64,000 nt of DNA from an uncultured virus (IMG/VR IMGVR_UViG_3300042337_000191) (Duplodnaviria > Heunggongvirae > Uroviricota > Caudoviricetes). The stretch lies in IMG/VR virus record IMGVR_UViG_3300042337_000191. One strand, given 5' to 3'. Below are positions 4,715-25,753 of this stretch, piece by piece. The translations under genes and the position numbers were made by a program. The notes under the pieces were generated by a model. It had not been told where the DNA came from. It saw only the letters and a program-made list of their open reading frames with translations, and did no database searches. Numbering within the stretch: the first letter of the stretch is position 1; each line of letters starts with the position of its first letter.

Positions 4715-4790
4715 GGGGATGTAGCTCAATGGTCAGAGCCGGTCGCTCATAACGGCTTGGTTGCAGGTTCGAGTCCTGCCATCCCCACCA
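4715..4790 (+). tRNA. tRNA with CAT anticodon, most likely tRNA-Ile2 (lysidine type)
   Basis: Cloverleaf, CTCATAA loop, encoded CCA; body resembles proteobacterial Ile2 rather than Met. Confidence 0.85.
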
Positions 4791-14243: not shown

Positions 14244-14889
14244 ATTATTTAAACACAATCTAGTTCCAGAAGTGGAAATAGATACGAAGAACATTGATGG
14301 CAAAAGATATTATGTGTTACCGAGTGGAGAGAAATTTCGCTCGGTAACAACCGTATTAGATGGAGCACTAGACAAAACAGCATTAATGGAGTGGAAGAAA
14401 CGTGTCGGAGAAGAAGAGGCTCAGAAGATTTCTACACAGGCTGCTCGTCGTGGAACCGCCGTACACTCAATCGCCGAGCGTTATGTCCTCAATGAAGAGG
14501 ACCATCTTCGGGGTGCTATGCCTTCTGGAATTGATGCTTTTAAAGGTATTCAAACGCTCTTAGACAAATACGTAGATAATATCCTAGGTATCGAACTCCC
14601 TCTCTATTCTACTGTTTTAAAAACAGCAGGTAGATGCGACTTGATCGCAGAGTTTGATGGCGTCCCTTCTATAGTTGATTTTAAAACAAGCCGTAAACTT
14701 AAAAAAGAAGAGTGGATCACCAGTTATTTTTTACAGACAGCTTGTTACGCTATGATGTTTTCTTGGATGTATAAAATAACAATTCCTCAAATAGTTGTGA
14801 TGATAGCAGTAGACCATGAAAGCCCACAGCTTTTTGTTAAAGATACAAAGGATTATGTAGAAGAAGTTCTAAGAATTTTCAGAACTTAA
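14233..14889 (+). CDS. PD-(D/E)XK exonuclease
   Basis: SVTTVL, RGTAVH, AGRCD, IVDFKTS, QTACY. Confidence 0.85.
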   Translation: MSRKLFKHNLVPEVEIDTKNIDGKRYYVLPSGEKFRSVTTVLDGALDKTALMEWKKRVGEEEAQKISTQAARRGTAVHSIAERYVLNEEDHLRGAMPSGIDAFKGIQTLLDKYVDNILGIELPLYSTVLKTAGRCDLIAEFDGVPSIVDFKTSRKLKKEEWITSYFLQTACYAMMFSWMYKITIPQIVVMIAVDHESPQLFVKDTKDYVEEVLRIFRT

Positions 14890-15327
14890 TTTTTGTTCTC
14901 TTTTTAATCTACAAGTTTCTTTTATCTTAGCTTTACGTTCTTCCGTACAAGGTCTTCCTTTTAAAGCTATAGAAACTTTTTCTCCAACTTCTTTAGGTCT
15001 CTTTCTTCCTGAAAGAGTTTTAGATATCTTTTCTTTAACTGCTTCTTTTCTAGGAACGCCTTTTCTTTTTTTATTTGCGGCAATTATGTTTTCGAAACTT
15101 TTTTGTTTGCCATTTTTTATTCCATCAGAAATATTTTTTCTGTGTTGTTTTGTTTTTATTTTGCCTTTATTTGATTCAGAAATTAGTTTCTTGGTTTCTT
15201 CTGTGTGAGGAATACCGCTATTCCATCCAGAAGATATTTGAATAGTTTGCCAAGGTTCTAATGGAGGTATTTCATATTCTAATGGCGGAAGACCTAGTGC
15301 CTTCCCTATAGGGTCATAAATATCCAT
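14869..15327 (-). CDS. NUMOD3-repeat DNA-binding protein with TerS-identical N-terminal peptide and no nuclease domain
   Basis: About five HTEETKKLISES-type repeats; own late promoter and GGAG SD. Confidence 0.8.
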   Translation of the reverse strand: MDIYDPIGKALGLPPLEYEIPPLEPWQTIQISSGWNSGIPHTEETKKLISESNKGKIKTKQHRKNISDGIKNGKQKSFENIIAANKKRKGVPRKEAVKEKISKTLSGRKRPKEVGEKVSIALKGRPCTEERKAKIKETCRLKREQKLSSENS

Positions 15328-15393
15328 GCTGGACCTCCGTGTAAGGTTTAGAGTAGGTAGGGATTGCCTTCCCGTGACCTACACTTATTTATA
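15328..15393 (-). promoter_or_regulatory. late promoter plus structured 5' leader (copy A)
   Basis: TATAAATA (15386-15393) followed by two hairpins; homologous to 25134-25201. Confidence 0.8.
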
Positions 15394-15405
15394 CAACAAA
15401 AGTCT

Positions 15406-15723
15406 TCATAAAACAACCAGAATAATAATTCCTAGTATAACTAAAGTCCAGAATAAATCGGAGAGGCTACCTTTAGCCTTTCTTCCTCTTTTTCTACTAA
15501 ACCCACCTGTAGTTTTACTCGTTACATACCATGAATTCGGCCCAACCTTCATAGATTGGGTCGTTCTGGATCTTCCAGTTTTTTGATTGGTCGAATAGGT
15601 AGTTCTCATATTACCTTTAAGACCAAAAGATGTAGAAGTAGTTACGCCTCTTTTACCACCCCATGAGGTAGTAGTTCTAACAGGCCCAACCTTCCTTGTG
15701 ATTCTAGTTCTTACATTTCCCAT
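15406..15723 (-). CDS. basic protein with C-terminal transmembrane helix (DUF4236-like)
   Basis: RTRITRKVGPVR...GVTTSTSFG; hydrophobic tail. Confidence 0.6.
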   Translation of the reverse strand: MGNVRTRITRKVGPVRTTTSWGGKRGVTTSTSFGLKGNMRTTYSTNQKTGRSRTTQSMKVGPNSWYVTSKTTGGFSRKRGRKAKGSLSDLFWTLVILGIIILVVL

Positions 15724-15738
15724 ACACCTATTTAGGCG

Positions 15739-16152
15739 TTAGCACCACAAGGTTCCGTAAGAGTCCTCTTCATCTAGAGAGAATACAGTTTTCTTGATGC
15801 CGAAATGTTCGATGGCTTTCTGACATCCCGGACAAGGTTCCGCCCTACCACTTACCCAGTTCATGTCTCCTTTGTGCTTGCGCTTTACACGATAGACATA
15901 TAGAGTGGCATTCTTAAGATCTTCTTCGTCGACAATCTTCAATGCTTTGATAATGCAATCTACCTCTGCATGTTTAAAGATCGCATCGTTATTCTTTGCG
16001 AATCTTTTCTGCAGAGGGTGAGATTTGTCGGAGTTTAGTCCAACTGAAATAATCTCGTTACGGATAACGAGACAAGCAGCGAGTTTCATTTTCATGTTGT
16101 TGGAAGTGGCGAGTCTACGGACAAAGTCCATATATTTCTTGTCGCGAGTCAT
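15739..16152 (-). CDS. Zn-dependent cytidine/adenosine deaminase-fold protein
   Basis: HAE and PCPGC motifs; start MTRDKK with GAGGA SD. Confidence 0.85.
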   Translation of the reverse strand: MTRDKKYMDFVRRLATSNNMKMKLAACLVIRNEIISVGLNSDKSHPLQKRFAKNNDAIFKHAEVDCIIKALKIVDEEDLKNATLYVYRVKRKHKGDMNWVSGRAEPCPGCQKAIEHFGIKKTVFSLDEEDSYGTLWC

Positions 16153-16164
16153 AATATAATCCTC

Positions 16165-16320
16165 GGGAGTTACTACCTTCTCCCAGTCACTATTTCGTTG
16201 AGACAGGTTTAGTGGATAAGACGGCATATCAGAGGACGTTCCAGGTTGCCTCTACCTATGTCTGTATAAAGCGATATGCCTACCTTATACAGTGAACGGA
16301 AAGTATCCATCTCTTTCCGT
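16165..16320 (-). ncRNA. candidate structured RNA (pseudoknot or switch) downstream of tRNA-Gly
   Basis: Interleaved 8-bp complementary pairs plus three hairpins. Confidence 0.4.
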
Positions 16321-16327
16321 CGGATTT

Positions 16328-16402
16328 TGGAGCGGGCGACCAGATTCGAACTGGCGACCAACAGTTTGGAAGACTGTGACTCTACCCCTGAGTTACACCC
16401 GC
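16328..16402 (-). tRNA. tRNA-Gly(TCC)
   Basis: Cloverleaf, CCA. Confidence 0.93.
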
Positions 16403-16524
16403 ATTAACCAAATGTATATAGGTCTTGTAATACAAAACCAGCGACAATCATCAATAAAAAGAAACAAACGATCTTGATAATTGCCGAAATTTTATGTTGT
16501 TCTTCAGTCATAATACATCCTTTT

Positions 16525-16599
16525 TGGCTCGGGATCATGGACTCGAACCACGAATGTCGGAGTCAGAATCCGAAGTTTTACCAATTAAACTAATCCCGA
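16525..16599 (-). tRNA. tRNA-Gln(CTG)
   Basis: Cloverleaf, CCA. Confidence 0.92.
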
Positions 16600-16600
16600 A

Positions 16601-16676
16601 TGGTGCTGGCAGCAGGAGTCGAACCCACGACCTTCTCATTACAAGTGAGTTGCTCTACCGTCTGAGCTATGCCAGC
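16601..16676 (-). tRNA. tRNA-Thr(TGT)
   Basis: Cloverleaf, CCA. Confidence 0.93.
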
Positions 16677-16677
16677 A

Positions 16678-17091
16678 TTAGTAAGCAGGAACCATACAAC
16701 TCTGAACCAGATCTGCTCCACCGAATAGCTGGCCAAACAAATCATAAGGATCAACATACATTGCACAGTTTCCAGAAGTTGCCACAGGAACATTAGTTGG
16801 ATATCCCGGAGGCGAATAGATGTTAGAAGCTTCTGGTGTTGGTACTGAATTATAAACAGGAACCAACGGTGCAGGTTGAACAGGAACTACTACTGGAACC
16901 ATAACTGTAGAGCTAATAGGACCAGGACCAGCAGGAACATACTCAACTGCAACAGGAACCTGAACAGTCTTTACAACTTTCTTTACTGGCTGCTGGTATG
17001 TAATCTTACAGTTATTACATACACTAATATTATCCTGCGCATAAGCAGGAACAGCCAATACAATCCCTAGAGCAACTAGAAACTTTCTCAT
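16678..17091 (-). CDS. secreted Pro/Val-rich protein
   Basis: Signal peptide MRKFLVALGIVLAVPAYA. Confidence 0.7.
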   Translation of the reverse strand: MRKFLVALGIVLAVPAYAQDNISVCNNCKITYQQPVKKVVKTVQVPVAVEYVPAGPGPISSTVMVPVVVPVQPAPLVPVYNSVPTPEASNIYSPPGYPTNVPVATSGNCAMYVDPYDLFGQLFGGADLVQSCMVPAY

Positions 17092-17093
17092 TG

Positions 17094-17378
17094 TTACCAC
17101 CCGTAGTAATAACCATTCCCAGGATAATAGTAATATGGCGAATTAGCGTATGGATAACGAGGACCATAGTAATATGGATAAGGATTATATCCATAACCCT
17201 GCGAAGCAATTGCGCCGCCGATTACTCCTCCGAGAATAGCAGCACCAGCCATGGCACCATAAGCTGCGCCATAACCACCGTAACCATATCCACCGTAGTA
17301 TCCACCACGATACCAAGCATTAGCCGGAGTCGTAATAACGCTACCGAGGATAACTAAAGCAGCAACAATCTTCTTCAT
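17094..17378 (-). CDS. secreted Gly/Tyr-rich protein
   Basis: Signal peptide, GGYYGGYGYGG, AILGGVIGGAIAS; resembles rhizobial Gly-rich exported proteins. Confidence 0.7.
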   Translation of the reverse strand: MKKIVAALVILGSVITTPANAWYRGGYYGGYGYGGYGAAYGAMAGAAILGGVIGGAIASQGYGYNPYPYYYGPRYPYANSPYYYYPGNGYYYGW

Positions 17379-17443
17379 AGCTTTTCTCCATAAAGCGAAC
17401 TGACCGTGGGTCCGCACGAGTCTATTTAGCGACCAACCTATAA

Positions 17444-17519
17444 TGGCTCCCGAGGAAGGGCTCGAACCTCCGACAAAGTCGTTAACAGCGACCTACTCTA
17501 CCAACTGAGTTACACGGGA
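17444..17519 (-). tRNA. tRNA-Asn(GTT)
   Basis: Cloverleaf, CCA. Confidence 0.92.
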
Positions 17520-17536
17520 ATAATTCTTATATTCTT

Positions 17537-17564
17537 AGTATACCTTATTTAGTCAGAAAGTCAA
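17537..17564 (-). promoter_or_regulatory. sigma70-type promoter with embedded late-like ACTAAATA
   Basis: TTGACT-N16-TATACT. Confidence 0.6.
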
Positions 17565-17587
17565 ATTCTTTTTTGACTGAGAGAGAA

Positions 17588-18325
17588 TTAACTGAAGGGA
17601 CATTTCGATTCTCTTTTTTGATTTCTCTTATCAAGCTGGACGAATTTTCTCCACCCATAAAAACTTGTTTGAGAATGGAAAGACATTTTCTTCCACTCGT
17701 ATTCCGAAACCAAATGTTGTCTAATCTTTACCTTCTTTTCTGACAAAGGCACCATAATAGCCAAAGGAAGACCAATCGGAATGATAAATTCTGATGTGTA
17801 ATTCGGAATCATCATATTTATGTGAGTCGAAGAGTTTAACTTATAATCAACGACTCCAGGAAGAACTCTAAAATAGAAATCTTCTAAATTCCATTCAGCG
17901 CCAAGAAAAACAAACTTAACACCTGTCTTTTCTTTAAAAAACCATGGGCTAGTTAATTTCAAATGAAAATAATTTTTAAACCCTTCACCATATAATTGCT
18001 TATCATGAATATCACAACCAGTGTCAAACGAAGCCCAAGTATCCATTCTGTTGTTAGCAATTTTAATAATTCTATCAGACCAGTTTTCTAGAACAATTCC
18101 TCGTTTATAAAGTTCAAGGAAACCAGAACATGTCTTCATATTTGCATTATTAAATGCTCTGTTGTTTACAATCCTATAGGGATTTCCCTCTGGCTTCCTA
18201 AGATTGTCCCACCATTCTGGTGTCGCTTTATAAGCATGAACAATAGGAGTTACCTCAAAAATCATACGATGCGCTGTGAAACAATCTATTGTTATCTCTG
18301 GACTTCTTTTGAAGAATGAAAACAT
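17588..18325 (-). CDS. hypothetical phage protein
   Basis: 245-aa ORF inside the tRNA cluster. Confidence 0.75.
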   Translation of the reverse strand: MFSFFKRSPEITIDCFTAHRMIFEVTPIVHAYKATPEWWDNLRKPEGNPYRIVNNRAFNNANMKTCSGFLELYKRGIVLENWSDRIIKIANNRMDTWASFDTGCDIHDKQLYGEGFKNYFHLKLTSPWFFKEKTGVKFVFLGAEWNLEDFYFRVLPGVVDYKLNSSTHINMMIPNYTSEFIIPIGLPLAIMVPLSEKKVKIRQHLVSEYEWKKMSFHSQTSFYGWRKFVQLDKRNQKRESKCPFS

Positions 18326-18341
18326 AATATATTCTTTCTTT

Positions 18342-18415
18342 TGGTACTGGCACCAGGTATCGATCCTAGTCTACAAGATCCACAATCTCGTGTGCTACCT
18401 TTACACTATGCCAGC
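18342..18415 (-). tRNA. tRNA-His(GTG), lacking G-1
   Basis: Cloverleaf; G1:U72, A73. Confidence 0.88.
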
Positions 18416-18418
18416 ATA

Positions 18419-18492
18419 TGGATCGGGGTCAGGGACTCGAACCCCGACATGCAGATTCAAAGTCTGCGGTTCTACCATTAAACTAACCCCGA
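18419..18492 (-). tRNA. tRNA-Gln(TTG)
   Basis: Cloverleaf, CCA. Confidence 0.9.
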
Positions 18493-18499
18493 ACAATTT

Positions 18500-18591
18500 T
18501 GGTGCGTAGGGATGGATTCGAACCACCAATGTTACCGCAAAGGGAACGGATTTACAGTCCGTCGCAACACCACCGTCGTTGCCGCCTACGC
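18500..18591 (-). tRNA. tRNA-Tyr(GTA)
   Basis: Cloverleaf with long variable arm. Confidence 0.88.
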
Positions 18592-18596
18592 ATGTT

Positions 18597-18673
18597 TGGA
18601 GTCCCAGGAAGGATTCAAACCCTCAACCTTCGGTTCCGTAGACCGATGCTCTATTCAGTTGAGCTACTGAGAC
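18597..18673 (-). tRNA. tRNA-Arg(ACG)
   Basis: Cloverleaf, CCA. Confidence 0.9.
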
Positions 18674-18674
18674 A

Positions 18675-18751
18675 TGGTGCCCTTGGTCAGATTCGAACTG
18701 ACACTTTGTTGATTTTGAGTCAACTGCCTCTGCCGATTGGGCTACAAGGGC
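18675..18751 (-). tRNA. tRNA-Leu(CAA), short variable arm
   Basis: Cloverleaf, CCA. Confidence 0.88.
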
Positions 18752-18908
18752 TTTTCTTGAACAATAATCAAAACTGGATAGCATGTTCTTTTAACAAGAT
18801 AAATGCCAGGTTTCCAGTTAATAGGATTGTTGTTTTTTATTCTTACTGGTATTTCGCAATAAAAATCAACTCGTTTTGTGGATCCTATAATACCACCTAC
18901 ATGTTTCA

Positions 18909-18984
18909 TGGTGCTTCCCCCTAGAATTAAACTAGATCCTCTCGTTCTTCAGACGAGCGTGCGCATCAGCTACACCAGAGAAGC
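18909..18984 (-). tRNA. tRNA-Phe(GAA)
   Basis: Cloverleaf, atypical T-loop TTTAATT. Confidence 0.82.
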
Positions 18985-18990
18985 ATTATA

Positions 18991-19086
18991 TGGTAGGCCA
19001 GGTAGGATTCGAACCTACTCGTTGTCTTTCATCCGGATTCATGGACAACAGCGTCTCGCCACGTCTTCCTATTCCGTCACTGACCT
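18991..19086 (-). ncRNA. tRNA-like RNA without a canonical anticodon arm
   Basis: 7-bp acceptor stem + ACCA and perfect T-arm GTAGG-TTCGAAT-CCTAC, but no 7-nt anticodon loop. Confidence 0.75.
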
Positions 19087-19090
19087 ATAT

Positions 19091-19167
19091 TGGTGCCCCT
19101 GGTAAGATTCGAACTTACAACCTCCTGATTCTAAGTCAGGCATCTCTTCCAGTTGGACTACAGAGGC
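19091..19167 (-). tRNA. tRNA-Leu(TAG), short variable arm
   Basis: Cloverleaf, CCA. Confidence 0.88.
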
Positions 19168-19171
19168 ATAT

Positions 19172-19246
19172 TGGTACGGGATGACAGGGTTGAACTGCCG
19201 ACCTTCGCCGTGTAAAAGCGTTGCTCTACCACTGAGCTAATCCCGC
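19172..19246 (-). tRNA. tRNA-Val(TAC)
   Basis: Cloverleaf, CCA. Confidence 0.9.
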
Positions 19247-19337
19247 ATATTATCTATCACCTAAATTCAAAAGGAATGCTAAGATTCCTATTGATATCCA
19301 TAACACAACGAGTAACTTTAACATACTCTGTCCTAAT

Positions 19338-19415
19338 TGGTCGGGGTAGCAGGATTCGAACCTGCGACCTACTGGTTCCAAACCAGCCACGCTAACCAGA
19401 CTGCGCTACACCCCG
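19338..19415 (-). tRNA. tRNA-Pro(TGG)
   Basis: Cloverleaf, CCA. Confidence 0.93.
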
Positions 19416-19422
19416 AATATAT

Positions 19423-19498
19423 TGGATGCGAAGCGTTGGAATTGCACCAACTTCTACTGGTTTATGAGACCAGCGAGATACTATACCTCCCGCCCGCA
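19423..19498 (-). tRNA. tRNA-Met(CAT), atypical
   Basis: CTGGT-CTCATAA-ACCAG arm; T-loop TGCAATT; bulged acceptor stem. Confidence 0.75.
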
Positions 19499-19505
19499 AA
19501 ACTCT

Positions 19506-19580
19506 TGGTGCTGATAGTTGGAATCAAACCAACCTGAAACGCCTTATGAGAGCGCCTCGACATCTTGCCGACCTATCAGC
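19506..19580 (-). tRNA. tRNA-Met(CAT), atypical D-arm
   Basis: CTCATAA loop, 7-bp acceptor stem, CCA. Confidence 0.78.
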
Positions 19581-19584
19581 GAAA

Positions 19585-19658
19585 TGGCACCAGTGGAAGG
19601 AGTCGAACCCTCGCCTGCTGTTTTGGAGACAGCCGTGCTACCGTAACACTTCACTGAT
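19585..19658 (-). tRNA. tRNA-Trp(CCA)
   Basis: Cloverleaf, CCA. Confidence 0.9.
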
Positions 19659-19660
19659 AA

Positions 19661-19750
19661 TGGCGGAGTGGTGGCGGAATCGAACCCCTGGCCTTTCGGC
19701 TCTACTGGTTTTCAAGACCAGACTAGTATCCCCGACTAGATACGCACTCC
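19661..19750 (-). tRNA. tRNA-Ser(TGA), irregular acceptor/T stems
   Basis: CTGGT-CTTGAAA-ACCAG arm, long variable arm, G73. Confidence 0.8.
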
Positions 19751-19765
19751 ATTTTTATTTAAACT

Positions 19766-19841
19766 TGGTGGACCAGAGAGGAATCGAACCCCCGACCCTC
19801 TGAATGCAAATCAGATGCTCTCCCAACTGAGCTACTGGCCC
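19766..19841 (-). tRNA. tRNA-Ala(TGC)
   Basis: Cloverleaf, G3:U70. Confidence 0.93.
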
Positions 19842-19861
19842 GAAACGTATTCTATTTAGTA

Positions 19862-19890
19862 ATATTACCGCATTTTAACAGACAAGTCAA
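19862..19890 (-). promoter_or_regulatory. sigma70-type promoter for the tRNA block, followed by late-like ACTAAATA
   Basis: TTGACT-N17-TAATAT. Confidence 0.6.
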
Positions 19891-19899
19891 CAACTTTTT

Positions 19900-19990
19900 T
19901 GGCGGAGAGTGAGAGATTCGAACTCTCGGTAGACTTTCGCCCACGCTTCGTTAGCAGTGAAGTGCCTTAGACCAACTCGGCCAACTCTCC
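19900..19990 (-). tRNA. tRNA-Ser(GCT)
   Basis: Cloverleaf, long variable arm. Confidence 0.92.
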
Positions 19991-19994
19991 AATT

Positions 19995-20086
19995 TGGTAG
20001 GCATGGTGGGACTCGAACCCACTGAAGAACACCCATCTGATGCTAAAGGCTTTATAAGAGCCTCCCCGCTACCCAGCGTCACGCCC
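19995..20086 (-). tRNA. non-canonical tRNA with TAT anticodon and long variable arm
   Basis: AGGCT-CTTATAA-AGCCT arm, 4-nt D-loop, good T-arm, ACCA. Confidence 0.75.
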
Positions 20087-20100
20087 AAACTTTGTAAACT

Positions 20101-20108
20101 TATAAATA
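20101..20108 (+). promoter_or_regulatory. T4-type late promoter
   Basis: TATAAATA upstream of the Seg-like gene. Confidence 0.7.
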
Positions 20109-20134
20109 CTAAGCAGCAGATGATTGAGGATACA

Positions 20135-20767
20135 ATGAAAGCATATACTTACACTATTACCCACATTTCTACTGGTAATATTTATTACGGAGTAAGAAAA
20201 TCGTCCATCGAAGATATTGGAGTGGACTACTTTTCTTCCTCTAAACTTATCAATCGCCTCATACAAGAGGATGGTATTGAAAACTTTTCATTTAAAGTTA
20301 GAAGAAAGTTCGATACATACGAAGATGCTCGTAAACACGAAACCAAGTTTCTTCAGAGAGTGAAAGCAGTATCTAATCCTAGGTTCTATAACCAAGCCAT
20401 TTCTTCTCCGAGAGTGTGCAAGAAAGACTCACATTCAGAAGAAAAAAGAAAACAATCTATTTCAGAAACTATGAAACTGCTGTGGCAGTCAGAAGACTAC
20501 AGAAATAGACAAAAATTCAACAAACTCTCTAAAGAAGAAAGATCTAAGAGAGGAAGAAAAGGCGGTCTTGCAACTGCTAAGACCAGAACCAAGAAACCCA
20601 AAAACAAACCTACTTACAGTGAAATCTTGATCGTCAAAGACGGTAAGACCAAAACAGTAAAAAGAAACCAAGTCCCAGCATACAGAAAGTATGGTTGGGA
20701 AAGGGCGAATGGCGACCCGTACGGGGATCGAACCCGTTATCTCTGGCGTGACAGGCCAGCGTCTTAA
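20135..20767 (+). CDS. Seg-like GIY-YIG homing endonuclease inserted antisense in the tRNA cluster
   Basis: YTYTITHISTGNIYYGVR...DYFSSS; NUMOD3-like HSEEKRKQSISET. Confidence 0.8.
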   Translation: MKAYTYTITHISTGNIYYGVRKSSIEDIGVDYFSSSKLINRLIQEDGIENFSFKVRRKFDTYEDARKHETKFLQRVKAVSNPRFYNQAISSPRVCKKDSHSEEKRKQSISETMKLLWQSEDYRNRQKFNKLSKEERSKRGRKGGLATAKTRTKKPKNKPTYSEILIVKDGKTKTVKRNQVPAYRKYGWERANGDPYGDRTRYLWRDRPAS

Positions 20768-20786
20768 CCAATTCGACTTACGAGCC
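20710..20786 (-). tRNA. tRNA-Asp(GTC)
   Basis: Cloverleaf, CCA. Confidence 0.9.
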
Positions 20787-20794
20787 ATTATAGC

Positions 20795-20932
20795 TTTCGG
20801 GCAGACGAGGACACACATTCGTCTCTTCTCTCACATTTGTTACAGCGCCGTGAATTAGCCGTATATACTTGCACCATATATCCGGTCCTATCATTTAGAA
20901 CGATAGGTATATGGCTACGTATGCACCCGAAA
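20795..20932 (-). ncRNA. candidate structured ncRNA between tRNA-Lys and tRNA-Asp
   Basis: Closing TTTCGGG/CCCGAAA stem plus at least three nested stems. Confidence 0.5.
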
Positions 20933-20934
20933 CT

Positions 20935-21010
20935 TGGAGGATCCTCAGGGACTCGAACCCTGAACCTTGAGATTAAAAGTCTCTTGCTCTACCTATTGAG
21001 CTAAGGATCC
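20935..21010 (-). tRNA. tRNA-Lys(TTT)
   Basis: Cloverleaf, CCA. Confidence 0.93.
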
Positions 21011-21017
21011 ATTATAT

Positions 21018-21095
21018 TGGTAGGGCGGATGGGACTCGAACCCACATTGCACAGATTGAAAGTCTGTTTTCCTAGGCCAATTAGAAGACCGCCCC
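21018..21095 (-). tRNA. tRNA-Glu(TTC)
   Basis: Cloverleaf, CCA. Confidence 0.9.
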
Positions 21096-21110
21096 GTAAC
21101 TTACACACTT

Positions 21111-21139
21111 AATATACCCTGAAAGAAAGTCAAAGTCAA
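21111..21139 (-). promoter_or_regulatory. sigma70-type promoter
   Basis: TTGACT-N17-TATATT. Confidence 0.6.
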
Positions 21140-21151
21140 CTTCTTTCTGAA

Positions 21152-21227
21152 TGGTAGACCGAGAGGGGATCGAACCCACGACAAAGGGATTAAGAGTCCC
21201 CTGCTCTACCAACTGAGCTATCGGTCC
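21152..21227 (-). tRNA. tRNA-Lys(CTT)
   Basis: Cloverleaf, CCA. Confidence 0.92.
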
Positions 21228-21233
21228 ATAAAC

Positions 21234-21309
21234 TGGTGCTGTAGGAGAGATTCGAACTCCCGACCTACTGATTACTAATCAGTTGCTCTACCAACTGAGC
21301 TACTACAGC
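21234..21309 (-). tRNA. tRNA-Thr(AGT)
   Basis: Canonical cloverleaf, ACTGA-TTAGTAA-TCAGT. Confidence 0.9.
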
Positions 21310-21310
21310 A

Positions 21311-21386
21311 TGGTTGTCCCTGCTGGCTCCGACCCAGCGACCCCAGTCTTATCAGGACTGTGCTCTACCAACTGAGCTAAGGGACA
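21311..21386 (-). tRNA. tRNA-Ile(GAT)
   Basis: Cloverleaf, atypical T-loop. Confidence 0.85.
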
Positions 21387-21388
21387 TC

Positions 21389-21523
21389 AATTCTTAGAAA
21401 GATACAGGTTTACTATGTCACTCATTCTGATGGTTGCAATCCAGAGCAGAACCTATTTGCGACACAAGGTTTGGGCTTTTTTACGGATCCTCGCCCGCAC
21501 GAGCCTGTACCTATCTAAGAATT
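21389..21523 (-). ncRNA. candidate structured ncRNA between tRNA-Cys and tRNA-Ile
   Basis: AATTCTTAGA/TCTAAGAATT plus a 9-bp closing helix and internal hairpins. Confidence 0.55.
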
Positions 21524-21602
21524 GGAGGGAGTGATGGGACTCGAACCCACATATTTTAGGTTTTGCAGACCTTGCCGTAACCAATTCCGGACACACACTC
21601 CC
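21523..21602 (-). tRNA. tRNA-Cys(GCA)
   Basis: Cloverleaf, U73, CCA. Confidence 0.88.
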
Positions 21603-21604
21603 AT

Positions 21605-21630
21605 AAAAAAGGCGGCTAAAGTAGCCGCCC
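21605..21630 (-). terminator. intrinsic terminator
   Basis: GGCGGCTA-CTT-TAGCCGCC-TTTTTT. Confidence 0.75.
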
Positions 21631-21639
21631 TCTATTTAG

Positions 21640-21903
21640 TCAGAGACCAGCGGCCAGTGCTCGATAACCAGCAGCAATTAGCTTGCGACTAGGAGTACCT
21701 GCACGATACTTAGCGACAGTTTCGCCCTTTGAATTCTTGCGCTCGTTTAGATAGATCGCATAACCCATCTGACGGATCTGATAAACAGCGTCATGTGGAT
21801 TAGAGATACCGTAGCGAGTCTTAATCTGCGCAGCAGTAAGCTGCTCACCACGACCAACTAGAGCCTCAAGAACCTTCTCAACCTTACTAATGCTAGCAAC
21901 CAT
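21640..21903 (-). CDS. winged-HTH-like DNA-binding protein
   Basis: LTAAQIKTRYGISNPHDAVYQIRQMGYAIY. Confidence 0.65.
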   Translation of the reverse strand: MVASISKVEKVLEALVGRGEQLTAAQIKTRYGISNPHDAVYQIRQMGYAIYLNERKNSKGETVAKYRAGTPSRKLIAAGYRALAAGL

Positions 21904-21920
21904 TATATACTTCTCCATTA

Positions 21921-22094
21921 TTAAAAGATGTCGACAACTCGACCGTTAGAATCAACTGCACGGATCCGAGCTTCCGGAAACTGCCACTGCAGCTGACGCA
22001 TCCCATCTCGATACAAGAGAGGAATATTCTGAGTATACGAATACGTACGCCAGTTACCCGACTGATCCTGAAGCTGAATTTCGATCATGTCCAT
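21921..22094 (-). CDS. 57-aa hypothetical protein
   Basis: AAAGGAG SD; MDMIEIQLQDQSGNWRTY...RIRAVDSNGRVVDIF. Confidence 0.65.
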   Translation of the reverse strand: MDMIEIQLQDQSGNWRTYSYTQNIPLLYRDGMRQLQWQFPEARIRAVDSNGRVVDIF

Positions 22095-22111
22095 ATCCGT
22101 AACTCCTTTTC

Positions 22112-22309
22112 TTAGGTTAACTTAATCTTACTATATTCTTCGAGGAAAGTAAAGACATTTTTTAGATCAGCGAAGATAAACTTTTTGTTCTGCCAGCTAT
22201 CTTCTTGATCGTTACCACTAACCTCTACCATCCAACCGTTCTCGTAACGGTTGACAGTAACACTATCCGAAACATTCATAAATGAGTCACTTAGCTTAAC
22301 CGTAGCCAT
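22112..22309 (-). CDS. hypothetical protein
   Basis: ORF with GAGG SD. Confidence 0.65.
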   Translation of the reverse strand: MATVKLSDSFMNVSDSVTVNRYENGWMVEVSGNDQEDSWQNKKFIFADLKNVFTFLEEYSKIKLT

Positions 22310-22310
22310 A

Positions 22311-22739
22311 TCATCCTCTTCTAGATTTGGTTCCTACTGTCGTCAAATCGACATCGGGACCAGCATATTGCAATCCGCCTTTGTTATATAGCGGCATAAC
22401 CAGACTCGCTTTCTTCAGGATTTCCTTCTGAACGTGCTCTGGCTCTTTGTGAAGGTTAGTCATAATATCTCGCTTCGAACAATCACCGGCGACTAGCGCC
22501 TTGTCGTCGTAATGGCGAGTAGAACGATCAACCACCATAGACTCATTATACTCTTTTCTGAACGATAAGTCAAGCGATTTTTTGTCTTTTTTAGATTTTA
22601 TTTGATCCGGGTGAAGACCCTTTGATATCAACCATCTATCGTGGTCCGAGACTAGCTTGGACTTAGCCTTATTCTTACGGCTCTGTTTACGCTTGCTAAC
22701 AGTCGTCGTATAATAGGCTGGAAGAATGTGCATAGACAT
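22311..22739 (-). CDS. basic hypothetical protein
   Basis: ORF with AGGAG SD; C-terminal PLYNKGGLQY. Confidence 0.7.
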   Translation of the reverse strand: MSMHILPAYYTTTVSKRKQSRKNKAKSKLVSDHDRWLISKGLHPDQIKSKKDKKSLDLSFRKEYNESMVVDRSTRHYDDKALVAGDCSKRDIMTNLHKEPEHVQKEILKKASLVMPLYNKGGLQYAGPDVDLTTVGTKSRRG

Positions 22740-22760
22740 AGTTATCTCCTAACTTTGTCT

Positions 22761-22789
22761 ATCATACCCCTGACTCAGAAAAAAGTCAA
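22761..22789 (-). promoter_or_regulatory. sigma70-type promoter
   Basis: TTGACT-N17-TATGAT. Confidence 0.6.
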
Positions 22790-22977
22790 GCGATAATTTC
22801 TAAGATTTGTTTCAATTTCTCTACTGAAGGTTTATACTCTTGTTCAAGTATTTCTCGAGCATATCTATGATTCTCATAGTCTAATTGTCTTAGATACTTG
22901 TATCTAGAGTCAATAACAGCCTCTAAAACTATAGGCAATATTTCTGAATACTTGATATACAGTTTATCGTCATTCAT
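22786..22977 (-). CDS. hypothetical protein
   Basis: Translationally coupled ORF. Confidence 0.6.
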   Translation of the reverse strand: MNDDKLYIKYSEILPIVLEAVIDSRYKYLRQLDYENHRYAREILEQEYKPSVEKLKQILEIIA

Positions 22978-23308
22978 CGACCTCTTCCTTCAAGTTCTCA
23001 ACAACTATATATTCAGCTTCTTTACTTATCTGCATATGTTCTTCAAGAATATCTCGAACTTTGATAAGCCGATCTTCAATATCGATAATAGTATTATGAA
23101 CAGCTTTATCATTATGACCTTCTTGAAGATCAATCAATGCTGCGTTCAAATTCATATCTGCAGAATAGTCAACTTGCCACTTATGAAACTGTCCGCCTTC
23201 GTCCATGTCTTCCATCAATTTAGGTTGAGGAAATAGAATGTTTTTAATAAGTTCTAACTTTTCTTCAGCGGGTGTATTAGTTCTTTTCTCAACTTTAAAT
23301 GGCCACAT
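22970..23308 (-). CDS. hypothetical protein
   Basis: ORF with AAGGA SD. Confidence 0.65.
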   Translation of the reverse strand: MWPFKVEKRTNTPAEEKLELIKNILFPQPKLMEDMDEGGQFHKWQVDYSADMNLNAALIDLQEGHNDKAVHNTIIDIEDRLIKVRDILEEHMQISKEAEYIVVENLKEEVDE

Positions 23309-23324
23309 AATATAATTCCTTCAA

Positions 23325-23726
23325 TTACTTTTTCTTCCGACCCATATTATATTTAGTTTCTAAAGTCCATTCATGCTTTTCTTTATGGTTGATAATCTTA
23401 ATCTGACTCATTGAAGCTAATGGCTCGTTAATACGCTCTGGGTCTACAACTTTCAACAAACCCCATTCTTGAAGTAGCTGAATAATCTTATTACGACGAC
23501 CTTTATCTTCGTCAGAAAAATTAGAAGGCTTACCGTCTATAGTAAACATTTCTTTAAAATGGACAATATAATACTTACCCTGCTTATGAAAAATATGGCA
23601 GGACTGATAAAGTTTTTTCTCTTTACGTGAAGCAACACCTATACGAGTTAGGGTTTCTTTGATCTTGAGAAAATCTTCTTCTTCAGCAATCTTCACCTCA
23701 ATTAAAGAATCTAAAAGTTCATTCAT
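23325..23726 (-). CDS. regA: translational repressor RegA
   Basis: DFLKIKETLTRIGVAS...LYQSCHIFHKQGKYYIVHFKE. Confidence 0.95.
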   Translation of the reverse strand: MNELLDSLIEVKIAEEEDFLKIKETLTRIGVASRKEKKLYQSCHIFHKQGKYYIVHFKEMFTIDGKPSNFSDEDKGRRNKIIQLLQEWGLLKVVDPERINEPLASMSQIKIINHKEKHEWTLETKYNMGRKKK

Positions 23727-24178
23727 TTGACTCCACCTTTATTATTTTTATTTTTTATAAGTTCAATTTGTTGTGGCGTAAGAATCTTTAATGCTTCTTT
23801 AGTGCGCACAATATTGTATTTATAATAATTAGAAACCAAGGTTTGGAGTTCTTCTTTCTTCTTACGGTCAGCCTTTTCTTTATCAGTTTCTTTAACGCCT
23901 CTCATCTTTCTTTTTCTTATAGAATTATAAAGATAATCATAATGCATTTGATCTGTCACACCATAGTGACAATTCATTTCATTAGCATAAAGAATTGTTT
24001 CTCTATAGTTTGATAAAACGCTATTAGTTCTCCATTGGCTATACTCTGAATCAACGTCAACCTCTTTACCAGAAGTTATTGAGTTTTCAAATCTCCAGTC
24101 ATACCTTGGTTTCTGTATTTTAATTTCTTGTTCAGGCTCTTTTCTTTCCTGTAACGTAACGTCTAAAAACTTAGCCAT
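23723..24178 (-). CDS. 62: clamp loader small subunit (gp62)
   Basis: ILYANEMN...YDYLYNSIRKRK; synteny 45-44-62-regA. Confidence 0.85.
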   Translation of the reverse strand: MAKFLDVTLQERKEPEQEIKIQKPRYDWRFENSITSGKEVDVDSEYSQWRTNSVLSNYRETILYANEMNCHYGVTDQMHYDYLYNSIRKRKMRGVKETDKEKADRKKKEELQTLVSNYYKYNIVRTKEALKILTPQQIELIKNKNNKGGVK

Positions 24179-25116
24179 CACACAAACTCACATTCAATCA
24201 TAACTTGAACTAGAAATGCCATAAAATTAATTTCAGGATTTGCAGCAAAAGCATTCTGGTATTGATATTTTGCTAGCTGTAGAACCAACACTGGTGCTGT
24301 TTGCTTAGTGCAAATATCAGACGAAATTTCATAGAACTGATTATAAAGATAATTAACATCCGTATCTAGATTATTTTTTACCCACTTACGGATTTCAGTA
24401 TAATTCTGTTCCTTCATCAACTTAACAAGATCCTTGATAGAAGTCTCTGTCATATTTGCTAGAATGCCAGAGTCAATCTTACCAGTCGCTGAATAACGCT
24501 GAAGCTCGTTAAGGACTCGCCGCCAATCTGGGAAGTGCTTATTGATTACTTCAGCAACAACAGCCTTATCAAACTCAATGCTTTCTGATTCAAGAATAAA
24601 TGTAACTCTCTTGAAGAACTGCGTAGCAAGCTTGGCCATAGCCTTCTTGCTAATTTTAAAATCAATTACCGAGCATCTTGAATGCAAAGGTTCAATGATA
24701 CGGTTCTTGAAGTTGCACGTAAGAATGAACCCGCAGTTTCTTGAGAACTCTTCCATAAAATTGCGAAGTGCGGGTTGAGTAGAATTGGCATTAAGATAAT
24801 CCGCTTCGTCAAGGATGACATATTTCCTGCCACCGGAAAGTGATACGGATGACGCAAAGTTGAGTATTTCGTTACGAAGTGTGTCGATATTTCCATTCAT
24901 AGATCCATTAATGACGATATAATCACAACCAAGCTGTTCTAGCATAGCACGTGCTACGGTCGTCTTACCGACACCTGCTGTTCCTGCTAGGATTAAATTA
25001 GGGATATTCTTTTGATCAACAAACTGTTGGAATGTTGCCTTCAAATCACAAGGAAGAATAGTTTCTTCAATAGTCTTAGGTCTGTATTTTTCAGTCCAGA
25101 TAAAATGTTCATCCAT
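24178..25116 (-). CDS. 44: clamp loader ATPase subunit (gp44)
   Basis: WTEKYRP, GTAGVGKTT, ILDEAD, SRC motifs. Confidence 0.95.
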   Translation of the reverse strand: MDEHFIWTEKYRPKTIEETILPCDLKATFQQFVDQKNIPNLILAGTAGVGKTTVARAMLEQLGCDYIVINGSMNGNIDTLRNEILNFASSVSLSGGRKYVILDEADYLNANSTQPALRNFMEEFSRNCGFILTCNFKNRIIEPLHSRCSVIDFKISKKAMAKLATQFFKRVTFILESESIEFDKAVVAEVINKHFPDWRRVLNELQRYSATGKIDSGILANMTETSIKDLVKLMKEQNYTEIRKWVKNNLDTDVNYLYNQFYEISSDICTKQTAPVLVLQLAKYQYQNAFAANPEINFMAFLVQVMIECEFV

Positions 25117-25133
25117 GTCAAAATTCTCCATTA

Positions 25134-25201
25134 TATAAATAAGCGTAGGTCACGGAGTCCCCACTCCTACCTACTCTAACGCTAATTAGGAGCGCCAGCA
25201 T
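25134..25201 (+). promoter_or_regulatory. late promoter plus structured 5' leader (copy B)
   Basis: TATAAATA followed by two hairpins; homologous to 15328-15393. Confidence 0.8.
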
Positions 25202-25753
25202 ATGATTATATATAAAATCACCAACCTTATCAATGGCAAAATTTACGTAGGTAAAACTACAAAAACCGCCAAAGAAAGATTTAAACGCCATTTCTACAAC
25301 CATAAAACTGGTAACACCTACCTCTATAAATCTATGCGAAAACATGGGTTCGATAATTTCAACATAGAAATAATAGAAAAAACTGAAAACTTGAACGAAA
25401 GAGAATCGTTTTGGATATCAGAATTATCGCCCGAATATAATATGACCTCCGGAGGAGATGGAGGAGATACTTCTCAATCCCCAAATTATATTACTGCAAT
25501 AAAACAAAGAGATATATCAGGTCAAAAAAATCCAATGTTTGGAAAGAAAAGAACAGATACTGCAATCTATCTCGTTGCTGCCAGAGAAAAAATGATTCAA
25601 GCAAATAAATGTCCAGTCATTTGCGAAGGTATCGAATATGATTCAGTAGGCAAAGCCCAAGAAGCATATCCTGGAATATCTATACGCAAAAGACTGGACA
25701 ACCCAAAATATCCTAATTTCTATCGCCTAAGAGAAAAAACTATCAAAAGGTAG
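25202..25753 (+). CDS. GIY-YIG homing endonuclease inserted antisense between genes 45 and 44
   Basis: IIYKITNLINGKIYVGKT, YNMTSGGDG, GQKNPMFGK. Confidence 0.88.
   Translation: MIIYKITNLINGKIYVGKTTKTAKERFKRHFYNHKTGNTYLYKSMRKHGFDNFNIEIIEKTENLNERESFWISELSPEYNMTSGGDGGDTSQSPNYITAIKQRDISGQKNPMFGKKRTDTAIYLVAAREKMIQANKCPVICEGIEYDSVGKAQEAYPGISIRKRLDNPKYPNFYRLREKTIKR

What the first reader, a model, noticed from the sequence alone, without database searches (positions are those of the whole stretch)
15328..15393. Covarying structured leader shared by two homing-endonuclease-type genes
Seen: copy A (minus strand, here) and copy B (25134-25201, plus strand) align without gaps: TATAAATAAG-y-GTAGGTCACGG-N10-CCTACCTACTCTAA-N9-GGAG-NN-CCAGCAT. 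The outer stem GTAGGT/ACCTAC is invariant. The inner stem is GGGA/TCCC versus GGAG/CTCC, and the SD-overlapping stem is ACCT/AGGT versus CGCT/AGCG, giving four compensatory pair changes. The downstream proteins have unrelated N-termini. Unlike the classic T4 hairpin, the structure lies downstream of the late promoter, so it is present in the late mRNA. Inference: a portable cis-regulatory RNA or protein-binding site that travels with mobile endonuclease cassettes.
Basis: partly seen in the sequence, partly recalled or inferred. Interest (0 to 1): 0.75.

Follow-up and report, generated by a model that had tools for sequence, protein, structure and literature searches.

The report
Antisense-folded control cassette heading homing endonucleases
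Two selfish DNA-cutting-enzyme genes in this T4-like phage start with the same portable control cassette of about 90 bases, found on well over a hundred such genes in uncultured phages. Its conserved RNA fold fits the strand opposite the gene, so it probably makes a small antisense RNA that restrains the enzyme.

Summary
Both copies lie at the stated coordinates, align without gaps and differ by four compensatory pair changes. They belong to a large family that Rfam does not hold. I found 167 distinct versions in IMG/VR loci, up to 13 in one phage record, ahead of GIY-YIG, HNH and NUMOD3-only genes. Covariation is very strong: 14 of 15 pairs change on both sides.

The fold fits the strand opposite the endonuclease gene better than the gene's own strand.
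- The same 19 pairs are 97.9% standard on the antisense strand and 88.3% on the sense strand.
- Sense A·C cells, which read as G·U on the antisense strand, outnumber sense G·U cells 168 to 25.
- One pair shows G-C, A-U and A·C but never G·U (0 of 167).

Codons 2-4 carry TATTTAT, the inverse of the late-promoter box, whatever the reading frame, and silent sites there are fixed.

My best reading, at about 0.45, is two facing promoters that make a roughly 70-base antisense RNA covering the ribosome site and start codon. No transcript has been seen. A sense-strand leader role and a role as leader for the neighbouring host gene remain open.

This scan reached the same antisense reading on other genomes (e1-5898278, e1-5687293). 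I saw those notes only after my own strand test.

The parts
15386..15393 (-). Copy A: sense late-promoter box TATAAATA, 3 bases upstream of hairpin H1
   Evidence: An octamer of this type lies upstream of 162 of 167 family members.
15353..15382 (-). Copy A: hairpin H1. Outer stem of 6 pairs, C, one R:Y pair, C, inner stem of 4 pairs with a 6-base loop.
   Evidence: All 11 pairs show changes on both sides across the family.
15329..15351 (-). Copy A: extended hairpin H2 (CUAAACCU / AGGUCCAG, 8 pairs, 7-base loop). The Shine-Dalgarno GGAG at 15335-15338 spans the end of the loop and the 3' arm.
   Evidence: The third pair is A·C on this strand and G·U on the opposite strand.
14869..15327 (-). Copy A: ORF of 152 aa beginning MDIY. 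It has a NUMOD3 motif only and no catalytic domain was detected.
15315..15322 (+). Copy A: CATAAATA on the plus strand, the complement of TATTTATG in codons 2-5. Candidate antisense late-promoter box; by the T4 spacing rule the start falls at 15328.
   Evidence: The position rule comes from passages of PMC2988020.
15328..15394 (+). Copy A: predicted antisense RNA of about 67 bases. It comprises H2', one A, H1', then the U-rich complement of the sense promoter. Inferred, not observed.
25134..25141 (+). Copy B: sense late-promoter box TATAAATA. It abuts the start codon of gp44 on the other strand (25129-25131).
25145..25174 (+). Copy B: hairpin H1
25176..25198 (+). Copy B: extended hairpin H2 (CUAACGCU / AGCGCCAG) with GGAG at 25189-25192
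25202..25753 (+). Copy B: GIY-YIG plus NUMOD3 homing endonuclease of 183 aa. It is inserted in the opposite orientation between gp45 and gp44 and overlaps the 3' end of gp45 by 11 bases.
25205..25233 (-). Copy B: sigma-70-like promoter on the antisense strand (TTGATA, 17 bases, TATAAT; 11 of 12 matches) inside codons 2-11. Its -10 box takes the place of the late box (the sense strand reads TATATAT here). The predicted start is near 25198, about 67 bases ahead of the gp44 start.
   Evidence: This is a consensus match only.
25132..25199 (-). Copy B: predicted antisense transcript segment (H2', H1') that would also be the 5' leader of gp44. Inferred.

Best explanation
Each copy is one instance of a portable cassette that heads free-standing homing endonuclease genes in uncultured T4-like phages.

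Read on the gene's strand, the cassette runs in this order:
- a T4-type late-promoter box;
- 3 or 5 bases;
- hairpin H1;
- one U;
- hairpin H2, which carries the Shine-Dalgarno sequence;
- a C and the start-codon region;
- the inverted late-promoter box TATTTAT in codons 2-4.

Shown:
- The two helices covary.
- Their non-Watson-Crick pairs are of the kind that pairs only on the opposite strand.

Inferred:
- The inverted box (in copy B a sigma-70-like promoter at the same place) starts an antisense RNA at the base of H2'.
- That RNA folds into H2' and H1' and ends in the U-rich complement of the sense promoter, giving about 70 bases.
- By full complementarity it pairs with the endonuclease mRNA across the ribosome site and start codon and holds down endonuclease synthesis, much as IS10 RNA-OUT does for its transposase.
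- Where the neighbouring gene is divergent, as gp44 is at copy B, the same transcript can run on as that gene's leader.
For: Reality of the fold:
- On 55 gapless leaders, 94.1% of cells are paired against 72.4% in shuffles and 31-42% when the partners are slid. 14 of 15 pairs change on both sides.

Strand:
- The same 19 pairs are 88.3% standard on the sense strand and 97.9% on the antisense strand, over 1045 cells each.
- RNAalifold run de novo gives 19 pairs at -21.85 kcal/mol on the antisense strand and 14 pairs at -14.62 on the sense strand.
- On distinct helices, sense A·C cells number 168 and sense G·U cells 25. In the H1 outer stem the counts are 13 and 0, although my parser accepted G·U and penalised A·C.
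- The pair between the middle base of CRC and the opposing Y is G-C in 66 leaders, A·C in 61, A-U in 40 and G·U in 0 of 167 (Fisher p 5e-11). The missing combination is the only one that is invalid on the antisense strand.
- The third pair of H2 is A·C on the sense strand in all 62 distinct H2 versions.
- The antisense minimum free energy is lower in 158 of 166 leaders. Z-scores against dinucleotide shuffles are -2.26 antisense and -1.34 sense.

Inverted box:
- Among the 67 leaders from scans that left this region free, 43 start M-x-I-Y. In those, the third base of codon 2 is T in 43 of 43 (background 0.37) and the Tyr codon is TAT in 43 of 43 (background 0.75).
- The motif also occurs in other reading frames and at +13/+14, still 6 bases after CAG. 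The spacing is 6 in 36 of 67, and 7 or 8 in 18.
- With the T4 box at -13 to -6 (PMC2988020 passages), the start falls on the G opposite the conserved C of CAGC.

3' end:
- 162 of 167 leaders have at least 5 U in an 8-base window just after H1'.

Copy B:
- A sigma-70-like promoter matching 11 of 12 positions sits at the same place.
Against: - Transcription of the antisense strand is inferred from motifs alone.
- 27 of 166 leaders, copy B among them, carry TATATAT, which is not a consensus late box.
- The base before the antisense box is A in 59 of 129 leaders, but in only 5 of 167 sense promoters. The two boxes are therefore not under identical selection, although T4 tolerates A at -13 at 9 of 50 sites.
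- The inverted box could instead exist to pair with the promoter RNA (rival 2).
- H1 also forms almost perfectly on the sense strand (96.7%), and A·C could be a protonated wobble pair.
- The simple terminator scan did not call H1' plus its tail in either copy.
- In copy A both promoters would be late, so the timing logic is unclear.
Confidence: 0.45

Rival explanations
1. Sense-strand 5' leader. H1 and H2 act in the endonuclease mRNA itself. H1 would be a 5'-terminal stabiliser or a protein-binding site, for example for the phage RegA homologue or the endonuclease. H2 would present or partly hide the ribosome site.
For: - The element lies exactly between the promoter and the start codon, and the Shine-Dalgarno sequence sits in H2.
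- H1 is 96.7% paired on the sense strand.
- With a 5-base spacer (78 of 167 leaders) the predicted late start is the first base of H1.
- A RegA-type translation repressor is encoded at 23325-23726.
Against: - There is an invariant A·C in H2, G·U is absent at the R:Y pair, and A·C cells outnumber G·U cells 168 to 25.
- Sense H2 is weak, with a mean of -2.0 kcal/mol.
- With a 3-base spacer (74 of 167 leaders, both window copies) the late mRNA would lack the two closing pairs of H1, which are conserved as pairs in all 55 sequences of the alignment.
Confidence: 0.25
2. The classic T4 design, enlarged. On read-through transcripts the promoter RNA (AUAAAUA) pairs with UAUUUAU in codons 2-4. This closes a three-way junction with H1 and H2 that buries the start region. 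Late transcripts start after the box and escape.
For: - The two boxes are exact inverted repeats.
- The downstream box is fixed at silent sites and is independent of reading frame.
- The pairing appears in some minimum-free-energy folds and has at least 4 expected pairs in 55% of 166 leaders.
- T-even precedents are described in passages of PMC2988022.
Against: - There is no leader-specific covariation: real pairs give -5.46 kcal/mol and permuted pairs -5.32 (p 0.86, n 166).
- The TATATAT class pairs worse and shows no compensation.
- The predicted paired probability of the AUG hardly changes, 0.561 on read-through transcripts and 0.552 on late ones.
- The helix is 7 A-U pairs closing a multiloop.
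- In 65 of 111 classifiable cases the upstream neighbour is divergent, so sense read-through is not expected from it.
Confidence: 0.15
3. An outward promoter and leader for the neighbouring host gene. The cassette carries a promoter in its first codons that reads outwards through H2' and H1' into the adjacent phage gene. This would offset the polar effect of the insertion. It may coexist with the best explanation.
For: - At copy B the antisense sigma-70-like promoter (11 of 12 matches) points at gp44, whose start codon abuts the cassette.
- The upstream neighbour is divergent in 65 of 111 classifiable cases, and its start lies 8-106 bases from H1, within 45 bases in 51 of the 65.
- T4 seg and mob genes are reported to embed promoters for downstream host genes (PMC2988022 passages).
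Against: - 46 of 111 classifiable neighbours are co-directional, copy A's among them, and there an outward transcript serves no gene.
- The type of box shows no association with the neighbour's orientation.
- This role gives no obvious need for a conserved two-hairpin fold.
Confidence: 0.2
4. A DNA-level element. The fold would form as a hairpin in single-stranded DNA of the template strand, or as a recombination or protein-binding site used when cassettes are exchanged.
For: - G·T is the best-tolerated DNA mismatch, so the strand asymmetry would also fit single-stranded DNA.
- H1 and H2 modules occur in different combinations. One H2 version is seen with 5 different H1 versions.
Against: - The asymmetric bulges and the placement of the fold exactly between two promoter boxes and their predicted starts fit transcripts better.
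- No associated single-strand DNA enzyme is encoded with the cassette; the adjacent genes are GIY-YIG, HNH or NUMOD3-only.
Confidence: 0.05

Closest known systems
Ribosome-site-sequestering hairpins with an embedded late or middle promoter at T-even homing endonuclease genes (I-TevI, I-TevII, I-TevIII, segB, Aeh1 mobE; review PMC2988022, passages read)
   Same: A late-promoter box lies directly upstream of a homing endonuclease gene. RNA structure sits around the ribosome site, and the purpose would be to limit endonuclease synthesis.
   Different: - Both arms of the SD-containing hairpin lie downstream of the predicted late start.
- The fold is a conserved two-hairpin family shared by many genes and protein families, not a gene-specific hairpin.
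- It fits the antisense strand better.
- My model finds nothing in T4, Aeh1 or S-PM2 (0 of 3 records).
IS10 RNA-OUT / RNA-IN antisense control of transposase
   Same: A mobile-element nuclease gene would have an outward promoter just inside its 5' end and a stably folded antisense RNA of about 70 bases covering the ribosome site and start codon.
   Different: - The setting is a phage homing endonuclease with T4 late-type promoter boxes.
- There are two hairpins rather than one.
- The antisense transcript is only inferred here.
CfrI, a roughly 225-base antisense RNA of cyanophage S-PM2 running opposite a homing endonuclease gene and psbA (PMC2984593, passages read)
   Same: An antisense RNA opposite a homing endonuclease gene in a T4-like phage.
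   Different: - CfrI is longer and bridges to psbA.
- It is not reported as a portable family.
- S-PM2 has no match to my model.
Promoters for downstream host genes embedded in T4 seg and mob genes (PMC2988022, passages read)
   Same: A promoter lies inside the endonuclease coding region and could serve the neighbouring phage gene, as at copy B and gp44.
   Different: Here the promoter points opposite to the endonuclease gene, lies in codons 2-4 (in copy B, codons 2-11), and is part of a conserved structured cassette.
PeSL mobile early-promoter and stem-loop cassettes of T4-type phages
   Same: Short portable units of promoter plus stem-loop that shuffle among T4-type genomes.
   Different: Those carry early promoters in hyperplastic regions and are not tied to endonuclease start codons. 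No comparison was run.

Membership tests
Any Rfam 15 family | Covariance-model match on either strand | tested here: not met
   At gathering scores the window gives tRNAs only. At E up to 1 on 15 variant loci the only two hits are weak, lie elsewhere and are not on the leader.
T-even promoter-in-hairpin translational mask (I-TevI type) | A late or middle promoter immediately upstream of the endonuclease ORF | tested here: met
   TATAAATA stands 3 bases before H1 in both copies. An xxTAAATA octamer is present in 162 of 167 leaders. This is a motif match only.
T-even promoter-in-hairpin translational mask (I-TevI type) | A very stable hairpin whose stem sequesters the Shine-Dalgarno sequence | tested here: not met
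   Only the 3' half of the SD lies in the H2 stem. Sense H2 averages -2.0 kcal/mol over 140 distinct versions.
T-even promoter-in-hairpin translational mask (I-TevI type) | The late start lies inside the inhibitory structure, so late transcripts lack its 5' arm | tested here: inconclusive
   This is not true of H2. It is possible for the pairing between the promoter box and TATTTAT, but that pairing has no covariation and little predicted effect on AUG accessibility.
Cis-antisense RNA control of a mobile-element nuclease (IS10 RNA-OUT type) | An outward-facing promoter inside the 5' end of the nuclease gene | tested here: inconclusive
   An exact inverted late box is present in 129 of 166 leaders, with silent sites fixed. 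Copy B has a sigma-70-like match of 11 of 12. Promoter activity was not tested.
Cis-antisense RNA control of a mobile-element nuclease (IS10 RNA-OUT type) | A stably folded antisense RNA whose fold is under selection | tested here: met
   The antisense strand is 97.9% paired, 15 of 19 pairs change on both sides, and the wobble pattern is specific to that strand.
Cis-antisense RNA control of a mobile-element nuclease (IS10 RNA-OUT type) | An antisense transcript is detected and represses translation of the nuclease | not testable with these tools
   This needs strand-specific RNA mapping and reporter assays.
HK022 put-type RNA (two hairpins separated by one base just after a promoter; recalled) | Acts in cis on RNA polymerase to suppress termination | not tested
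   The only resemblance is in layout, with one base between H2' and H1'. No sequence or model of put RNA was at hand.

The most novel reading that the evidence does not exclude
The cassette is a two-faced module, with facing promoters flanking about 70 bp. It would produce the first conserved, family-wide class of structured antisense RNA that restrains homing endonucleases of unrelated protein families. The same outward transcript would supply a promoter and leader to the neighbouring phage gene, so that the selfish insertion costs its host phage little.
Probability: 0.3. Interest if true: 0.85.

Novelty: new variant of a known kind. Interest (0 to 1): 0.7.

Why it matters
Control of homing endonucleases in phages is known from a few gene-specific hairpins in T-even phages. 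This is instead a portable, multi-copy control cassette shared by GIY-YIG, HNH and degenerate endonuclease genes, with up to 13 copies in one phage record. Its covariation is strong enough to define a new RNA family, and its strand signature points to antisense control.

If the antisense RNA exists, three things follow:
- It would be a general way in which selfish nucleases are kept harmless in T4-like phages.
- It would give annotators a marker for free-standing endonuclease cassettes in viral metagenomes.
- It would be a compact natural example of convergent-promoter, antisense gene control.

Tried and rejected
- **RNA evidence.** For window 15250-25249, no RNA holder was listed, so transcript ends could not be examined.
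- **Named phages.**
  - Megablast of both loci found nothing.
  - blastn with the leader plus ORF start hit coding sequence only.
  - My model found 0 of 5 named relatives by gp44 (DLP_6, Melnitz-3, Mosig, S-H38, C48C1) and 0 of 3 model phages (S-PM2, T4, Aeh1). The same model found 5 of 5 IMG/VR records.
- **Bacterial and archaeal genome contigs.** The pattern gave 40 matches where I estimate about 30 by chance. Only 8 are strong model hits, all on contigs of 1.6-9.4 kb in metagenome bins, so they say nothing about hosts.
- **Known small ribozymes and riboswitches** (hammerhead, pistol, preQ1-I, guanidine-II). I considered these from memory of their cores and rejected them, because the conserved bases do not fit and Rfam gives no hit on either strand.
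- **Extension of H1 by pairing the spacer with UCUA.** It appears in some folds but is not consistent across spacer types.
- **Box type against neighbour orientation.** No association was found.
- **Literature.** Three searches listed no description of this family. I saw the listings and abstract starts only, apart from the passages cited from PMC2988022, PMC2984593 and PMC2988020. Subscription journals are not covered.

Full report
**Observation**

The 35-base core (11 fixed bases, N10, 14 fixed bases) occurs exactly twice in the window, and none of 100 shuffles gave any match. The two copies differ by two compensatory pairs in the inner stem of the first hairpin and two in the second hairpin.

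**Setting**

The window is from a T4-like phage.
- gp44 clamp loader lies at 24178-25131 and gp45 at 25743-26396, both on the minus strand.
- gp62 and a RegA-type repressor follow.
- There are 24 tRNA genes.
- TATAAATA occurs 13 times, against 6.1 expected.

By gp44, the nearest named phages are:
- Stenotrophomonas phage DLP_6 (62%);
- Methylophilales phage Melnitz (58%);
- cyanophages (about 56%).

Copy B heads a GIY-YIG plus NUMOD3 gene inserted in the opposite orientation between gp45 and gp44. Copy A heads a 152-aa ORF with only a NUMOD3 motif.

**A large family**

- An exact-pattern scan of IMG/VR gave 39 loci.
- The scan that fixed only the 3' part (TCTAA ... CAGCATGNNTATWTAT) left the first hairpin free. 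It returned 128 matches and 118 distinct sequences. Of these, 100 passed my hairpin parser.
- Over all loci the parser found 167 distinct leaders.
- The parser required 5 of 6 outer pairs (G·U counted as a pair, A·C not), 3-4 inner pairs, C[AG]C, [CT] and T[CT]T[AG]. The high pairing percentage of H1 is therefore partly by construction. The wobble statistics below are not, because the parser was biased against them.
- A covariance model built from the 55 of 167 leaders that share equal segment lengths gave these results:

| Searched | Result |
|---|---|
| The window | the two copies only |
| G001, the near-identical record | 4 matches |
| Four other IMG/VR records | 8, 1, 13 and 7 matches |
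| Five named relatives | 0 of 5 records |
| S-PM2, T4, Aeh1 | 0 of 3 records |

- Rfam has no match on either strand.

**What follows the leader**

I scanned 66 downstream proteins; of the 67 available, one 17-aa fragment was left out. At E up to 0.01:
- 27 hit GIY-YIG or SegE_GIY-YIG;
- 12 hit HNH families;
- 7 hit NUMOD3 only;
- 20 hit nothing.

Many of these proteins are cut by the ends of their loci.

**Anatomy**

- An xxTAAATA octamer is present in 162 of 167 leaders.
- A spacer follows, of 3 bases in 74 leaders and 5 bases in 78.
- H1 has an outer stem of 6 pairs, a C, a single R:Y pair, a C, and an inner stem of 4-5 pairs.
- One U follows.
- H2 reads CUA-N-NNNN, a loop holding the SD, then NNNN-N-CAG. 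The outer three pairs explain the conserved TCTAA and CAGC.
- A C follows. Usually ATG NN comes next, then TAT(T/A)TAT.
- In one subclass the ATG lies inside the 3' arm of H2 (ATGTCCAGC). The box still follows CAG by 6 bases.

**Covariation**

- On alignment A2, 94.1% of cells pair, against 72.4% in shuffles and 31-42% when the partners are slid. 14 of 15 pairs change on both sides.
- The outer stem of H1, invariant between the two window copies, has 36 distinct arm pairs across the family.

**Which strand**

- With the full 19-pair structure, the sense alignment is 88.3% paired (H2 76.8%). The reverse-complement alignment is 97.9% paired (H2' 95.2%, H1' 99.8%).
- RNAalifold run de novo recovers exactly these 19 pairs on the antisense strand at -21.85 kcal/mol. 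On the sense strand it finds only 14 pairs at -14.62.
- On distinct helices, sense A·C cells number 168 and sense G·U cells 25. In the H1 outer stem the counts are 13 and 0. The third H2 pair is A·C in all 62 distinct H2 versions.
- The R:Y pair is G-C in 66 leaders, A·C in 61, A-U in 40 and G·U in 0 of 167, although the parser allowed all four (Fisher p 5e-11; on distinct H1 versions p 3e-9).
- The pair next to CUA/CAG is A-U in 98 leaders, A·C in 44, U-A in 17 and G-C in 7.
- Antisense folds are more stable in 158 of 166 leaders. After correcting for composition, z-scores are -2.26 antisense and -1.34 sense, and the antisense z is lower in 131 of 166.

I conclude, at about 0.8, that selection keeps the fold on the strand opposite the endonuclease gene.

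**The inverted box**

- TATTTAT is the reverse complement of the late-box core.
- In the 67 leaders from scans that left this region free, 43 start M-x-I-Y. In those, the third base of codon 2 is T in 43 of 43 (background 0.37), Tyr is TAT in 43 of 43 (background 0.75), and Ile is ATT in 29, ATA in 13 and ATC in 1.
- The motif also appears in other reading frames (TAT TTA C; G TAT TTA C; CAA TAT TTA TAC) and ahead of HNH domains (MxIYHxHHIIPKH).
- According to passages of PMC2988020, the T4 late box lies about one helical turn upstream of the start, its first base is numbered -13, and A at -13 is the commonest variant (9 of 50 sites). I infer from this that the 8-base box spans -13 to -6.
- An antisense start would therefore fall on the G opposite the conserved C of CAGC, one base before H2'.
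- The sense start would fall on the first base of H1 with a 5-base spacer, and on the third base with a 3-base spacer.
- After H1' the antisense strand runs into the U-rich complement of the sense promoter. 162 of 167 leaders have at least 5 U in 8 bases there, against 51 of 166 after H2 on the sense strand.
- Copy A has CATAAATA at 15315-15322 on the plus strand.
- Copy B has TATATAT instead, but carries a sigma-70-like TTGATA-17-TATAAT (11 of 12 matches) at 25233-25205 on the minus strand, with its predicted start near the same point.

**Mechanism**

The best-supported reading is a cassette with facing promoters that yields an antisense RNA of about 70 bases, complementary to the ribosome site and start codon of the endonuclease mRNA. 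The fold and its strand are shown. The antisense transcript and its effect are inferred.

Points against:
- There is no transcript evidence.
- 27 of 166 leaders have TATATAT.
- The -13 preference of the antisense box differs from that of the sense promoters.
- The simple terminator scan does not call H1'.

Rivals:
- **A sense-strand role** is not excluded, since H1 forms well on both strands.
- **The classic T4 design**, through pairing of the promoter box with TATTTAT, has no covariation (real -5.46 against permuted -5.32 kcal/mol, p 0.86). It also barely changes predicted AUG accessibility (0.561 against 0.552).
- **A leader role for the neighbouring gene** fits copy B, where gp44 starts right at the cassette edge. 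It also fits the 65 divergent neighbours, but not the 46 co-directional ones. Another 51 were ambiguous and 5 had flanks too short, of 167 in all.

**Comparison with what is known**

- The review PMC2988022 (passages) describes gene-specific hairpins with embedded late promoters at I-TevI/II/III, segB and Aeh1 mobE. It also describes promoters for host genes embedded in seg and mob genes.
- PMC2984593 (passages) describes CfrI, an antisense RNA opposite a homing endonuclease gene in S-PM2.
- IS10 RNA-OUT and the PeSL cassettes are recalled from memory only.
- The present cassette works like a blend of these, but it is a distinct, conserved, portable family.
- Three literature searches listed no description of it (listings only).
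- Earlier notes of this scan on other genomes (e1-5898278, e1-5687293) reached the same antisense reading. I saw them after my strand tests and count them as agreement, not as evidence.

**Verdict**

The feature is real and its covariation is strong. It is a new RNA family and a new variant of known kinds of endonuclease control. The strand signature is the main surprise. The function remains to be shown.

Noticed in passing
window 16331-21600, minus strand (plus 4715-4787, plus strand): There is a cluster of 23 tRNA genes on the minus strand and one more on the plus strand, 24 in all at Rfam gathering score.
   Followed up: no
window 25743-25753: The GIY-YIG gene of copy B ends 11 bases inside the 3' end of gp45 on the opposite strand. 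The cassette fills the whole gp45-gp44 gap, which is about 22 bases in the annotated Melnitz-3, Mosig and S-H38 records.
   Followed up: partly
window 14869-15327, minus strand: The ORF of copy A keeps the cassette's first four codons (MDIY) and a NUMOD3 motif but has no detectable catalytic domain. Similar 'MxIY plus NUMOD3 only' ORFs follow other leaders (L214, L220, L242, L248), and an orthologue with different hairpin stems is at L284.
   Followed up: partly
window 23325-23726, minus strand: A RegA-type translation repressor is encoded here (phrog_242, E 1.6e-59), next to gp62 and gp44 as in T4. Whether it binds the AU-rich start region of the cassette was not tested.
   Followed up: no
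window 15326-15586, plus strand: The CATG palindrome at the start codon puts an ATG on the antisense strand. This opens a mechanical 86-aa ORF through the leader of copy A. It is probably not a gene, because the predicted antisense start lies at the last base of that ATG.
   Followed up: no
loci L004, L188, L303, L304, L336 and others: The H1 and H2 halves of the leader occur in different combinations. One H2 version is joined to 5 different H1 versions, and several H1 versions to 3-4 H2 versions. This suggests recombination at the conserved junction.
   Followed up: partly
G004 (IMG/VR record of 360,683 bases with direct terminal repeats): One very large phage record carries 13 copies of the cassette. 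G002 has 8 and G005 has 7. G001, the record closest to the window, has 2 further copies outside the window region.
   Followed up: partly
loci L441, L455, L465, L467, L469, L473, L478, L479: Strong matches to the model lie on short contigs (1.6-9.4 kb) binned into bacterial metagenome-assembled genomes of unrelated phyla. These are most likely phage contigs that were mis-binned.
   Followed up: no
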